64,000 nt of DNA from Eledone cirrhosa. Taxonomy: Eukaryota. Below are positions 38,131 through 52,825 of this stretch, piece by piece (position 1 is the stretch's first letter; each line of letters begins with the position of its first letter). Under the pieces are notes generated by a model, which was given only the letters and a program-made list of their open reading frames with translations, was not told the DNA's origin and ran no database searches. Location of the stretch: assembly GCA_964016885.1 (NCBI GenBank), contig OZ024740.1, positions 128,588,001 through 128,652,000 of the forward strand, given 5' to 3'. Made by a program: the position numbers and the translations under genes.

Positions 38131-38490
38131 TTAGAAAGTGAGGTTTTTTTTACAAAATGAAAATAACCGATGTGTCCTACACGAGTGAAAGTATAAAGAA
38201 AAAGAGATGAAATCGAAAATGCAACTGGAGTCTTATTTTTTTTTTAAATATATATATTTATTTGGTTCCTTTACCGGTTTCGCAGTTCTTCTGATTTTCA
38301 AAAGGTGAGTTGAGATGGAGGGTCTGTGGTTTTTCTCACATCTGGTGAGAAAAACCACAGACCCTCCATCTCAACTCACCTTTTGAAAATCAGAAGAACT
38401 GCGAAACCGGTAAAGGAACCAAAAAAATATATATATTTAAAAAAAAAATAAGACTCCAGTTGCATTTTCGATTTCATCTCTTTTTCTTTA
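38131..38490 (-). mobile_element. Fold-back element family B (hammerhead U3:A8) inserted in (TA)n
   Basis: Long arm 38131-38340, fold at about 38341-38344, inverted arm 38345-38490 (about 145 bp, near perfect). (TA)n on both sides. Confidence 0.85.
38379..38416 (+). ncRNA. Hammerhead U3:A8 variant (stem II base mutated); mirror copy on the minus strand at 38268-38305
   Basis: CCTT-TTGAAAA-TCAG-AAGAA-CTGC-GAAA-CCGG-TA-AAGG, with G10.1 changed to T in both arms. Confidence 0.6.
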
Positions 38491-40469
38491 TATATATATA
38501 TATATATATTTGTGTGGACGGGTGGGAAAGCAGACCGAAATATTTGAGTACGAATTGCCAATGTTCTTAGATTCGGCTTAAAAAGTAACACTATATTGCT
38601 TCTCTGCCATCATTCTACGTTTTATAATTTTCCTTTCTCTTCCGCAACCAATTAAAAATTGATTAAGTAGTAATTATTATCACATCAAATTTATATTAAA
38701 ATGACAACTTATACATTTGCATGCGTGCAGGATGTACATACAAGCACACACGCACGCACACACGCACGCACACACGCACGCACACACGTATGTATATATA
38801 TATATATATATATACATATATATATATATATATATATATATTTATATGTGTGTGAGTGTGTGTGTGTTTGTATGGGTGTGTATATGTATATATATATATA
38901 TATATATATATATATATATATATATCATAGACTAATTAATTAATACGTGAATCAGAATTAGAAATTATTATCCTCCAAATTTGCAACTAACACTTTACTA
39001 TTCTCCACGTTAATAAAAGGTTGCGAAAATTTCAATGTAAAATTAATCTGAGCAGTTGAATTAATAGTCTGTACTTATCTATACGTACATGAACGAAGAG
39101 CTAGCCTTCGGATATATATATATATATATACACATATGTATGTATGTATGTATGTATGTATGTATGTATGTATGTATGTATGTATGTATGTATGTATGTA
39201 TGTATGTATGTGTGTGTGTGTATGTATGTATGTATGTATGTATGTATGTATGTATGTATGTATGTATGTATGTATGTATGTATGTATTTACACACGTCTA
39301 TGCCTTCATAAATACATACTGACTATCACAGCCCTCTAATGCATGGTTTCTACCACACCACCCGTTAAATTTGTCTAATATGTCAAGATTATCGTATCTC
39401 ATTTAACAAATTGAATGCGTATCACTTGCATTTAGTATATATAATTTCATATTCTACACAGTATCTCCTTGGAGGTCTTCAATAACAGCTATTGAAATTC
39501 AGATTTACTATAATAAGTAATTTTTCTCCTTTTCTCTATTTCATCAGCTAATTTTGAACAACTGAATAACCTTTATCAAATTAACCAATTAGCATCTCAC
39601 GGGGGACCTAAATTCTTCTGACTTCTAGTACTGATGAAGTCAAATTAAAAATCCTTTATACAGTTTAGAAATTTAAATTTCAGAAAGAAGAGGGAGATGA
39701 GAAAACATATTCATGAATATTCATTCACACCTACGTTTTTTTTATGTGTGCATGCGCATGAGAATTTCTGCATGCATGTATATATGCATGCATGTCTCTC
39801 TGTTTGTATGTGTATATGTATGTATGGGCGGATGGATGGATGTATTTTTAATTAAGTTAAAACTGATGCCTAGCGTAATTGCGTTACATGAAAAAGAATT
39901 GGTGGTTAAATCTTGCATACGAAATATGGATAGCTGCTGACTGAATTAATCCAAAGGAACTCACAAATTTGCTGACTTAATTAAAATACCATATGATAAA
40001 ACCTTTAAGATCTACAAACAGACATGGATAGAATAGTTAAAAGTCGACGGGAATATTGCGAAGATTTATTAAATATACTAGCAGAAAAACAAACCTGCGG
40101 GTGGTTTTCAGCTAGCATGTGTGGTGTGTACATTGATATTATACGCAAGTATATATACATGTAGATATGATACGTCAAATAAAATCATAATTGACAATAT
40201 ACACAGAAATTGAACGAAGACTGTGTTACACTATCTTATGTAATCAGTAACGTAATCCATGATACATTAAAAAAAGACGATATTATATATAAACAGCATT
40301 AGGAGAAAATTAGTAACAGAAAATTAATATGTTTATTTAAGCGATGGCCACCGGAAGTGTTGACATTTGAAAATTTTAAAGAAGGGAATCTTTAAATAAA
40401 TAAGAAAATATATTTAATGAACAGCCTCGAAATTTAGTAGATACATTTTGTAATATTCATTCATTACTT

Positions 40470-40602
40470 TTGGCCCTTGCCATTCTGAGTTCAAATCCCG
40501 CCGAGGTTAACTTTGCCTTTCATCCTTATAGGGTCGATAAAATAAAGTACCAGTAATGTACTGGATAATTGCTGGCCTTGTGCCAAAAGTAGAAACAATT
40601 AT
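40470..40602 (+). mobile_element. Same SINE family, 5'-truncated
   Basis: GGCCCTTGCCATTCTGAGTTCAAATCCCG...GTAGAAACAATTAT. Confidence 0.85.
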
Positions 40603-41829
40603 TTATTCAAAGTAATCCAACTTATTTTACTAATGGGATAAAACATTATAAACCATACGCAGTCCCGTGCTTCTTTCTTTATTATAGTTTAGATATTCTC
40701 AGGTTGACCAAATCCTTACCACCAATATTCAACACAGACACACAATCCTTTCTCTTAATAACTCTCATAGACTGGTTGAAGTATATATTAGCAATAAGGA
40801 AACTAACTTAGGTAAAGATGCTGGAAATAGTGGATTGTTAGCAGACAGCTTCAGATATGGTAATATAAAATTTAGAGAAATTAAACATGAAATAATTCTG
40901 GAAATATGGTTAGAAAGTTAAGCAATAAAAGATTGGAAATATGTAATAATGATTCCTATATACAAGATTAAATGCCAGCAGCTATACTGGATTATAAAGG
41001 AATAACAATTCTATGTACTGCAAGGAGAATTCCTGAATCCCTCATGCTTTTAAGACTAAATATTCATATATCAAACCTTATCTTGCCAGAATTACAATAT
41101 CACCTTCGGCTCAAATGAAATACTATTTTTAACATTTTTGCAACTTGTCATTTTCAAGAAACGTGTTGCAAACTGCGAATATCAAACGAACATGAATTAA
41201 ACCTTTGATCGGTGAACAGATCTGCTCTTGGGGAGATCCTTGTCAGGTTAGGTTTTCCAGAATAAGTTCCTAATATAATCAGATATTTTCCTAGAACATG
41301 GAGGCCTGGGTAAATATTGATGTTATTATTTCACAGCCAATCAAAGCTAATAAAGGTGTTAAGAAAAATGACTTTGATCTCATGATTTATTTCTGAATTT
41401 ATTTATCTGTGCTTCTCATTGATGCCTTCACGGAGAGCAATGATGGCGTCTTCATCATGTATTGTTCCTCAGGAAAGATTTCAATACCAGGAGCTTTGCT
41501 TCAAAAACTAAACTCCCCCAAACACCTATTCGCGATGTCCTTTGCACTGGTGACTGCGGTCTAGTTGCGCATTCACCACAGATATAAAACATTTCAATAG
41601 ATTGTTCACGTAAAGATTTTAATCTTGATAAAACTGTAGTAATACTTCAAACTGCTCCGACACCTATTTATATAGCAACATCCATTCACGTAGGATGGAC
41701 AGCACCCCAAAGTAGTCCATAATATTCATACATAGGAAGTACAAATAACCAATATTTCACGTTAGATGATGAAATAACCTCATGTATCAAGGAAGCAAAT
41801 GAGAAGAGTTGAAGTATACAATACATAGA

Positions 41830-42330
41830 TACTATCTAATCTTCTATATTCCTGTGAGATCTGGATTGTCTGTCGCAGGTACATTAAGTTTCTTGAACGT
41901 TTTCTAAAGTGTTGTTTCTGTGATATCCTCGGTGTTCACTGGACTACACACACAACAAACACTGAAATATTTAAAACATGAAGGGGCAGTGATATTGAAG
42001 CTCATATCCACAAGCAAGGTCTTTGATGCTTAGGCCACGCTGATAGATCTGACAACAAAAGGATCTCAAAGAATGTCCTTTATGGCAAGTTATTATCTGC
42101 TGCAACACCACAACACAAACCAAAACTGTGTTTCAAAGATTGAGGGGAAGATTTCCTAACATAGTGCAACAGTTACCCGTCTCACAGAGAGATCATGGTA
42201 TTAAATAGAAACAAGTGGTGCCTCGCTATATCTAATGGTGTATGACTGGTTCAGGAACCTGCTTCGGAATGGGCTAGCATTAGGCGTGCAGCTAAGAAAA
42301 GCCAGCATGTGGAGACCTCTGTCTTTTCGT
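41830..42330 (+). mobile_element. Heavily decayed RTE (BovB-like) LINE 3' fragment
   Basis: Manual translation gives CEIWIVCRRYIKFLERF, LGHADRSDNKRISKNVLYGKL and KPKLCFKD, resembling RTE motifs CETW..YRRH...LERF, LGH..R..D.R.PK..LYG.L and PK.RFKD. Stops present. Confidence 0.6.
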
Positions 42331-51777: not shown

Positions 51778-51820
51778 ACGATGCTGATGACAGCTAATAA
51801 GCTGGAAACTAGTTCATCGT
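51778..51820 (+). ncRNA. Minimal type I hammerhead ribozyme
   Basis: ACGATG-CTGATGA-CAGC-TAATAA-GCTG-GAAA-CTAG-TT-CATCGT: stem I 6 bp, stem II 4 bp, palindromic CTAG in place of stem III, GUU cleavage triplet. Confidence 0.85.
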
Positions 51821-52191
51821 TCCTTTGTGAGTGTTGAACAAAATGGTTGCCGAACACTGTACGGCTTCATTCGGGCTGTTTGTCTACAAACAAACCGAAT
51901 ATTTTAATAAATGTTCGGTAAACCCATACGTACATATATATATATGTGGATGTATGTATGTATATACATACTACTGTACGTCTGTATACATATATGTATG
52001 TACGTAAAATACTTATATTTAAGTATCAGCCGTACTAACAGTGAGAAATGAAACGTCATTTTTTTCCATTTATCGTTTTCGGTACGCCCCGCCGACTAAC
52101 TCACTCGATATGCAAATTAGGCTGCTCGGCCGTTAATATGCATAAGGATAGTATATACTTTCAAACGTTCAATCGACTGACAGGAAGGTAT

Positions 52192-52234
52192 ACGGTGCTG
52201 ATGACAGCTAATAAGCTAGAAACTAGTTCATCGT
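52192..52234 (+). ncRNA. Minimal type I hammerhead ribozyme (second tandem copy)
   Basis: ACGGTG-CTGATGA-CAGCTAATAAGCTA-GAAA-CTAG-TT-CATCGT. Stem I has one G-U pair and extends distally (ACTGACA/TGTCAGT). C-A mismatch at the base of stem II. Confidence 0.75.
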
Positions 52235-52484
52235 TCCTTTGTCAGTGTTGAACAAAATGGTAACGATGGTTGCCGAACACTGTACGGCTTAATTCGTGCT
52301 GTTTGTTTACATTATAATAAATGTTCGGTAAATCCATACGTACATATATATATGTGTGTGCATGTATGTATGTACGTATACATACTTATATTTAATTATC
52401 AGCCGTACTAACAGTGAGAAATGAAAATTCATTCTTTCCATTTATGTATATATATATATATATATATATATATATATATATATA

Positions 52485-52825
52485 TTAGAAAGTGAGGTTT
52501 TTTTTACAAAATGAAAAATAACCGAGGTGTCCTACACGAGTGGAAGTATAAAGAAAAAGGGATGAAATCGAAAATGCAACTGAAGTCTTATTTTTTTTTA
52601 AAATATATATATTTATTTGGTTCCTTTACCGGTTTATTTGGTTCTTTTACAGTTGAGATGGAGGGTCTGTGGTTTTTCTCACATCTGTGAGAAAAACCAC
52701 AGACCCTCCATCTCAACTCACCTTTTGAAAAGCAGAAGAACTGCGAAACCGGTAAAGAAACCAAATAAATATGTATATTTAAAAAAAAAATAAGACTTCA
52801 GTTGCATTTTCGATTTCATCCCTTT
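52485..52825 (-). mobile_element. Family B fold-back copy in (TA)n/(CT)n
   Basis: Same terminus at 52485; fold TTTTTCTCACA-TC-TGTGAGAAAAA at about 52685. The left arm has lost the ribozyme core (about 52636-52651 replaced); the right arm retains it. Confidence 0.85.
52721..52757 (+). ncRNA. Minimal type I hammerhead ribozyme, U3:A8 variant
   Basis: CCTT-TTGAAAA-GCAG-AAGAA-CTGC-GAAA-CCGG-TA-AAG. Confidence 0.72.

What the first reader, a model, noticed from the sequence alone, without database searches (positions are those of the whole stretch)
38131..52825. Family B: independent insertions share both the exact 3' end and the exact fold point
Seen: three copies start (TA)n-TTAGAAAGTGAGG. Two fold at TTTTTCTCACA^TC(T)(G)GTGAGAAAAA and the third stops at the same TTTTTCTCACAT. 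Copy-specific variants are shared between the arms of one copy: TGGAGTC and G10.1-to-T in both arms at 38 kb; TGAAGTC and GGGATG/CATCCC in both arms at 52 kb. Inference: the inverted arm is copied from the same cDNA at each insertion, or homogenised later by arm-to-arm conversion, and the template has a programmed 5' end rather than a random truncation. This suggests snap-back self-priming of second-strand synthesis.
Basis: partly seen in the sequence, partly recalled or inferred. Interest (0 to 1): 0.75.

Follow-up and report, generated by a model that had tools for sequence, protein, structure and literature searches.

The report
Penelope RNA copied twice, joined head-to-head
These hairpins in TA repeats are stubs of a Penelope-like jumping gene, a known layout; their fixed fold is likely the start of the element's RNA, and the joints suggest each half was likely copied separately from that RNA and then joined, rather than one half folding back to copy itself.

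Summary
The three copies are the end repeat (pLTR) of an endonuclease-bearing Penelope-like retroelement, with at least 7,681 tail copies in this genome. The fold is a strong hotspot, not a rule: 37 of 90 tail-picked copies stop there, 21 run past it and 32 stop short. It lies 30 nt behind a TATA box, so it is probably the transcription start; it is not the ribozyme cut site. Both outer ends are fixed internal sites of the full-length RNA. Arms of one copy share subfamily variants (88 of 96, 26% expected), also when kilobases apart, but few rare variants (29 of 280). So they share a template at insertion, with little later conversion. Snap-back is not supported as the main route: the commonest joint (481 copies) has a one-base centre, and in 21 of 52 such joints the tail-less arm is the complete one, also in the youngest copies. 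Best reading: both target strands prime separate cDNAs on one RNA, and their 3' ends are joined. The layout and the self-priming idea are published; this scan noted two-start joining before in other families.

The parts
38131..38343 (-). Copy 1, tail-bearing arm: RNA positions +1 to about +214 of the pLTR and tail, ending in (TA)n
38345..38492 (+). Copy 1, tail-less inverted arm, ending at the internal site CTTTATA then (TA)n
   Evidence: 3,060 such ends genome-wide
38341..38345 (.). Head-to-head joint at the predicted transcription start (+1 = 38343 on the minus strand)
   Evidence: TATA box 30 nt upstream in read-through copies
38268..38305 (-). Minimal type I hammerhead motif, U3-A8 core, with G10.1-to-T (predicted impaired)
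   Evidence: sequence; variant described in PMC4209133
38379..38416 (+). Second hammerhead motif in the inverted arm, same G10.1-to-T
   Evidence: sequence
44327..44539 (-). Copy 2, single tail-bearing arm that stops two bases short of +1 and joins TA repeats
44466..44503 (-). Hammerhead motif of copy 2; predicted fold shows stems I and II, not stronger than shuffles (z -1.19)
52485..52686 (-). Copy 3, tail-bearing arm; an internal duplication-deletion removes most of its hammerhead
52687..52825 (+). Copy 3, tail-less inverted arm with hammerhead motif (52721-52758), running into (CT)n

Best explanation
These are short insertions of a Penelope-like retroelement in which the enzyme likely nicks both strands of a TA repeat and primes two separate cDNAs on the same RNA, one from the tail end (+214) and one from an internal site (+152). 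Both cDNAs would run off at the RNA's 5' end, which is predicted to be the pLTR transcription start, and their 3' ends would then be joined head to head through 1-2 bases of overlap. Shown: the element's identity, the two fixed outer ends, the fold hotspot, the TATA spacing, the one-tail rule, joints of both polarities and subfamily sharing between arms. Inferred: that +1 is the transcription start, that both ends are reverse-transcription starts, that one RNA molecule (not two from one source) is used, and the joining step.
For: Identity: RT and C-terminal GIY-YIG upstream of the pLTR in long copies; pLTR and tail run on into ORF1 in 6 of 30 ORF-picked loci. Fixed 5' end: 37 of the 58 arms that reach the site stop within 9 nt, a stop rate of 0.096 per base against 0.0022 elsewhere; TATA box 30 nt upstream in 60 of 62 matches. 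Folds at the ribozyme cut site 10, at a control site 8, at +1 about 1,400. Two starts: 3,060 tail-less and 4,887 tail-continuing ends; 3 of 30 tail-less arms stand alone; 48 of 55 complete pairs have exactly one tail. Two cDNAs: the commonest joint has a one-base centre (481 copies; the blunt form 0), which needs a one-base loop in cis. The tail-less arm keeps the terminal base in 21 of 52 such joints, 11 of 25 among the youngest. One RNA: arms agree in subfamily in 16 of 17 widely spaced and 72 of 79 tight pairs, 26% expected, and 42 of 45 in a second set. Both arms stop, or both pass, +1 in 49 of 51 pairs. In vitro, a related enzyme nicks and extends both strands, starts at two internal sites flanking the tail, and is modelled as a dimer (PMC11167929).
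Against: No RNA 5' end was observed. The tail arm is complete more often than the tail-less arm (28 to 13; 31 to 21), so the process is not symmetric and some joints may be true snap-backs; two other common joints fit 2-bp cis hairpins with loops of 2 and 4. Rare variants are shared only in tight hairpins (29 of 236 against 0 of 44; p 0.012). Deletions inside arms do occur (L082, L205), so large length asymmetries alone prove little. 8 of 96 pairs disagree in subfamily, which needs two templates or later change. In PMC11167929 start sites did not differ between strands, which does not by itself predict one tail per insertion.
Confidence: 0.62

Rival explanations
1. Snap-back: one cDNA made from the tail end reaches the RNA 5' end, folds on itself and primes the second arm, which is cut or joined at +152.
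For: Explains subfamily sharing, the matched reach of the arms and one tail per copy. Two common joints fit 2-bp hairpins with loops of 2 and 4. The tail arm is more often the complete one. Rare variants are shared only in tight hairpins. Snap-back after full-length cDNA is reported for R2 proteins (PMC11371274 passages).
Against: The commonest joint needs a one-base loop. 21 of 52 such joints have the opposite polarity, with no rise with age. The tail-less arm reaches further 5' than the tail arm in 13 of 51 pairs of the unbiased set, by up to kilobases (read). Tail-less arms also occur alone.
Confidence: 0.15
2. Dual priming: two different RNA molecules, mostly from the same source locus or dominant subfamily, prime the two target strands.
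For: Fits the joints equally well; 8 of 96 pairs disagree in subfamily; 7 of 55 pairs have two or no tails. PMC2837659 says twin and dual priming could not be told apart in its L1 data (passages).
Against: Independent RNAs would not give exactly one tail in 48 of 55 pairs (p 1e-8 against one half) or matched reach past +1 in 49 of 51, unless loading is coupled.
Confidence: 0.15
3. Arms were made alike, and centres flipped, after insertion by arm-to-arm conversion or recombination.
For: Some rare variants are shared, only in tight hairpins; G10.1-to-T is shared in 4 of 22 two-arm copies against an allele frequency near 1%.
Against: 251 of 280 rare variants are arm-specific, 99 of 108 in a second set. 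No gradient from the fold (p 1.0). Subfamily sharing holds kilobases apart. Polarity does not change with age.
Confidence: 0.06
4. Assembly or library artefact (fold-back chimeras).
For: Long-read and amplified libraries can make palindromes (own knowledge). Strand-switch reads are few, and the window's own hairpins were not read-checked.
Against: Arms differ by independent substitutions and end at a different fixed site. Folds sit at one element position, about 1,400 times. Raw reads of other samples show the same stop and a strand-switch joint at it.
Confidence: 0.02

Closest known systems
Insertion units of endonuclease-bearing Penelope-like elements: pLTR, adjacent inverted 5'-truncated copy, one-sided tail (PMC8557442 passages; PMC3846280 main text read)
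   Same: RT plus C-terminal GIY-YIG, pLTR with hammerhead, head-to-head inverted copy, tail on one end only, TA-rich targets, solo pLTRs; a pLTR TATA box and initiator-like site were noted in PMC3846280.
   Different: Tail about 62 nt rather than 30-40. About four in ten copies end exactly at the predicted start site. PMC3846280 reads the palindromes as self-priming, possibly on an antisense template; the joints here favour two cDNAs.
Poseidon_Ac in vitro (Frangieh et al. 2024, PMC11167929; parts 1-2 of 4 read: abstract, main text, start of methods)
   Same: Two internal reverse-transcription starts flanking the tail; both target strands nicked and extended; AT-rich target; hammerhead cleavage not needed; predicted dimer.
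   Different: There the starts lie inside the ORF and are not homologous to the target; here they lie in the 5' leader before ORF1 and both end in TATA, which matches the target. The parts read leave the later steps open.
L1 twin priming and dual priming (PMC2837659 passages)
   Same: Both target strands prime cDNA, giving an inverted piece joined by microhomology.
   Different: L1 twin priming uses a variable internal site and gives inverted fragments with an internal deletion; here both starts are fixed, 62 nt apart, and both cDNAs copy the same stretch to the RNA's 5' end.
R2 cDNA snap-back junctions (PMC11371274 passages)
   Same: Inverted sequence after full-length cDNA.
   Different: Priming there is at an internal position of the same cDNA; it would give one polarity only.
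Minimal PLE hammerheads, U3-A8 variant (PMC4209133, parts 1-2 of 4 read)
   Same: Core covariation U3-A8, G10.1-C11.1 pair, short palindromic helix III, pairs on opposite strands 100-700 bp apart.
   Different: Helix II is 4 bp here; the cut site is not a fold hotspot.

Membership tests
EN+ Penelope-like elements | RT followed by C-terminal GIY-YIG endonuclease | tested here: met
   Pfam GIY-YIG E 5e-07; RVT_1 E 1.6e-06, just under its cut-off; one frame in L048
EN+ Penelope-like elements | pLTR at both ends of full-length copies | tested here: met
   Same repeat after the ORF and 3' UTR and before ORF1
EN+ Penelope-like elements | Inverted 5'-truncated copy and one-sided tail | tested here: met
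   117 of 127 head-to-head pairs have one tail (set partly picked on the tail); 48 of 55 in a set picked on the joint
EN+ Penelope-like elements | Hammerhead motif in the pLTR | tested here: met
   Core, stems I and II and palindromic helix III by pattern, 236 of 324 matches identical. No hammerhead family among the 150 Rfam rows shown of 195; folding energy not above shuffles; cleavage untested
EN+ Penelope-like elements | Two cysteines between GIY and YIG (CCHH motif) and DKG motif | tested here: met
   YAIKCKGCNEDYIG and EADKG in translations
EN+ Penelope-like elements | Target-site duplication | tested here: inconclusive
   Both ends lie in TA repeats, where a duplication cannot be recognised
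Neptune/Nematis clades | CX2-5CxxC linker before the endonuclease | tested here: met
   CGRSNCGTC in L048; definition from PMC8557442
Neptune/Nematis clades | RT phylogeny with reference elements | not tested
Hydra clade | Absence of the CCHH motif | tested here: not met
   The two cysteines are present
Naiad/Chlamys clades | N-terminal endonuclease, no canonical hammerhead | tested here: not met
   Endonuclease is C-terminal; hammerhead present
Non-LTR retrozymes | Tandem monomers bounded by the ribozyme cut site | tested here: not met
   Copies are dispersed and bounded by +1; folds at the cut site 10 against control 8
MITE / DNA transposon | Symmetric terminal inverted repeats with a transposase parent | tested here: not met
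   Ends are asymmetric and the parent encodes RT-GIY-YIG

The most novel reading that the evidence does not exclude
Penelope-like elements insert by same-template twin priming: a protein dimer sits on two neighbouring internal start sites of one mRNA, primes from both strands of a TA target, copies the same stretch twice to the cap, and seals the two cDNA ends head to head. One mechanism would then explain the inverted pLTR, the one-sided tail and thousands of fixed-length stubs, and the genome's hairpin centres would be a fossil map of the element's transcription start.
Probability: 0.55. Interest if true: 0.65.

Novelty: new member of a known kind. Interest (0 to 1): 0.45.

Why it matters
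How Penelope-like elements, the closest retroelement relatives of telomerase, form their inverted repeats and tail is named as an open task in PMC8557442, and self-priming is the explanation offered in PMC3846280. This family is abundant enough to test that from the genome alone, and the joint polarity argues against simple self-priming. It gives a concrete in vitro prediction (two marked RNAs, single against double nick). The element itself and its layout are ordinary for the class.

Tried and rejected
Rfam scan: only sub-threshold microRNA-hairpin matches among the 150 of 195 rows shown. Sequencing runs: no RNA holder listed, so the transcription start could not be checked. Ribozyme cut as the fixed 5' end: rejected. 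Later flipping of the centre: no age trend. Inherited master hairpin: rejected. Structure at the two outer ends: folding no stronger than shuffles, so the hairpin signal described in note e1-8673755 was not seen here by energy alone. PDB sequence search of the ORF: nothing significant. The bacterial promoter scan does not cover this promoter type and found nothing. Joint polarity was not counted genome-wide, only in fetched samples. Cap copying (an extra C after the last base) appears in a handful of joints (L008, L044, L103, L104, L214) but was not tested. One search hits were picked by likeness to the window copy and are biased toward its fold and its rare variant; they were left out of the fold histogram but are inside the 100-copy variant set.
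Full report
Observation. The three copies are at 38131, 44327 and 52485, each starting (TA)n-TTAGAAAGTGAGG. Two are hairpins folding at 38341-38345 and 52684-52687, and the third stops at the same place and joins TA repeats. The window lies in a 3.0-Gb genome; I did not identify the organism. Positions below use RNA numbering: +1 is the first A of AGATGTG, window 38343 on the minus strand.

Identity. Many relatives run past the fold. 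[quoted passage not shown] In 6 of 30 loci picked on the ORF, the same repeat and its tail run on through TATATACCC into a 400-residue ORF1 that overlaps the RT frame; a seventh has the repeat upstream in sense but its junction was not printed. So the repeat is the pLTR of an endonuclease-bearing Penelope-like element, Neptune/Nematis-type by the linker as defined in PMC8557442 (passages); no tree was built. It carries a minimal hammerhead motif with the U3-A8 core described in PMC4209133. An exact 27-letter tail pattern matches 7,681 times.

Outer ends. Of 90 loci taken from the first 100 tail matches on contig 1 (ten not fetched), 74 keep the exact tail end and 71 have TATA next to it. The second arm nearly always ends at another fixed site, CTTTATA at +152: 3,060 ends genome-wide against 4,887 arms that continue into the tail. 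Both sites are internal in the full-length RNA, and both end in TATA. Three of 30 tail-less arms have no partner within 1.5 kb. This matches the two internal start sites flanking the tail found in vitro for Poseidon_Ac (PMC11167929). That they are reverse-transcription starts here is inference.

Fold point. In the 90 loci, 37 tail arms stop within 9 nt around +1, 32 stop earlier and 21 run past. The stop rate is 0.096 per base at +1 against 0.0022 on either side. Genome-wide there are about 1,400 folds at +1 and 3,223 read-through arms. In read-through copies a TATA box lies 30 nt upstream in 60 of 62 matches (overlapping loci may count twice). Folds at the ribozyme cut site (10) are no commoner than at a control site (8). 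So the fixed end is most simply run-off at the pLTR transcription start. Because copying starts only 152 or 214 nt from that end, the ordinary mRNA gives fixed-length stubs; long copies would come from the downstream pLTR. No RNA 5' end was observed. In RAD reads of three other samples laid on L034, loose ends of 166, 197 and 165 reads lie at +1 and a strand-switch joint at +1 appears in 3, 1 and 10 reads; these may come from few loci.

Arm against arm. Of 127 head-to-head pairs I dropped 10 without exactly one tail, 6 doubtful or duplicated and 11 too short, leaving 100. Distance within a copy is 0.026, between copies 0.049; tail-tail 0.046, short-short 0.052; permutation p 0.0005. Subfamily sites agree in 92 of 94, 87 of 90 and 82 of 86 copies. 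Haplotypes agree in 16 of 17 widely spaced and 72 of 79 tight pairs, 26% expected. Rare variants are mostly arm-specific: 29 shared, 251 not. The shared ones are all in tight hairpins (p 0.012), with no gradient from the centre. G10.1-to-T occurs in 102 arms on several haplotypes and is shared in 4 of 22 two-arm copies (plus L024; two pairs fetched because they were shared are left out). So the arms share a template lineage at insertion and then age separately; a little conversion, or source-copy variants, explain the rest. Each joint type occurs in several subfamilies, so the hairpin is made anew each time.

Snap-back or two cDNAs. The tail arm cannot be copied from the tail-less arm, and the tail-less arm cannot be copied from the tail arm where it holds extra letters. 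The commonest joint is a perfect palindrome around one T-A pair: 481 copies, while the blunt form with both terminal bases has 0. In cis it needs a one-base loop. In 60 further such joints (entries 28 to 88 of the list, one tandem neighbour skipped) the tail arm keeps the terminal base in 31 and the tail-less arm in 21; 8 could not be assigned. The reversed form is as common in the youngest copies (11 of 25 with at most one arm difference; 5 of 10 in the least diverged subfamily) as in older ones (8 of 16), which argues against later flipping. All simple joint types occur in both polarities, 28 to 13 in the first set. In 13 of 51 two-arm copies of the unbiased set the tail-less arm reaches further 5' (read), though deletions can mimic this. 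Exactly one tail is found in 48 of 55 complete pairs, and both arms stop or both pass +1 in 49 of 51. Together these point to two cDNAs started at adjacent sites on one RNA and joined by 1-2 bases of overlap. The excess of complete tail arms, and two joint types that fit short cis hairpins, leave room for a minority of true snap-backs.

Comparison with print. The layout (inverted truncated copy, one-sided tail, TA targets) is published (PMC8557442 passages; PMC3846280, main text read). Twin and dual priming are described for L1 (PMC2837659 passages) and snap-back for R2 (PMC11371274 passages). PMC2377424 was seen as abstract and outline only; it reports a TATA-less internal promoter for Drosophila Penelope, unlike the TATA-type spacing here. 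The retrozyme preprint 10.64898/2026.07.22.740005 was seen as passages. Searches returned no paper that tests joint polarity or ties the fold to the start site; the library lacks most subscription papers, and supplements were not opened. Earlier notes of this scan reached the one-tail rule and two-start joining in other families; I had written that reading down before seeing them, and they are not independent support.

Verdict. A new family of a known class, in a known layout. The fixed fold is real and probably the transcription start. Snap-back is the weaker explanation. The value lies in a genome-scale test of an open mechanistic question.

Noticed in passing
window 43521-43718: An unrelated hairpin family between TA repeats with the same build: a one-base centre (GGACT-C-AGTCC) and a one-sided tail of about 80 nt. 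Suggests the one-base joint is general.
   Followed up: no
window 37410-37560: Inverted repeat with a spacer of about 40 nt; one arm holds a CTGATGA core, probably another Penelope-type end.
   Followed up: no
window 50900-52445: Tandem and inverted units of about 300-400 nt with hammerhead cores at 51144 (-), 51784 and 52198 (+), directly beside copy 3; retrozyme-like.
   Followed up: partly
window 49665 and 52949: A direct repeat of about 90 nt, each behind (TA)n(GA)n, brackets 3.3 kb that includes the tandem array and copy 3.
   Followed up: no
window 53260-55990: A decayed LINE with endonuclease and RT-like sequence on the + strand, RTE-like by recall.
   Followed up: no
L353:1858-1948: ORF1 and the RT frame overlap by about 90 nt around a run of T's, which may be a programmed frameshift site.
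   Followed up: no
L002, L028, L044, L062, L145: Joints with a short restart or duplication of the first 10-35 nt, as if the enzyme jumped more than once at the RNA 5' end.
   Followed up: no
L075, L095, L106: A minor fold hotspot at the self-complementary AT stretch about 85-95 nt from +1, which may be slippage or later deletion.
   Followed up: partly
L152: A different hairpin family sits flush against this family's tail end, so these elements stack in the same TA tracts.
   Followed up: no
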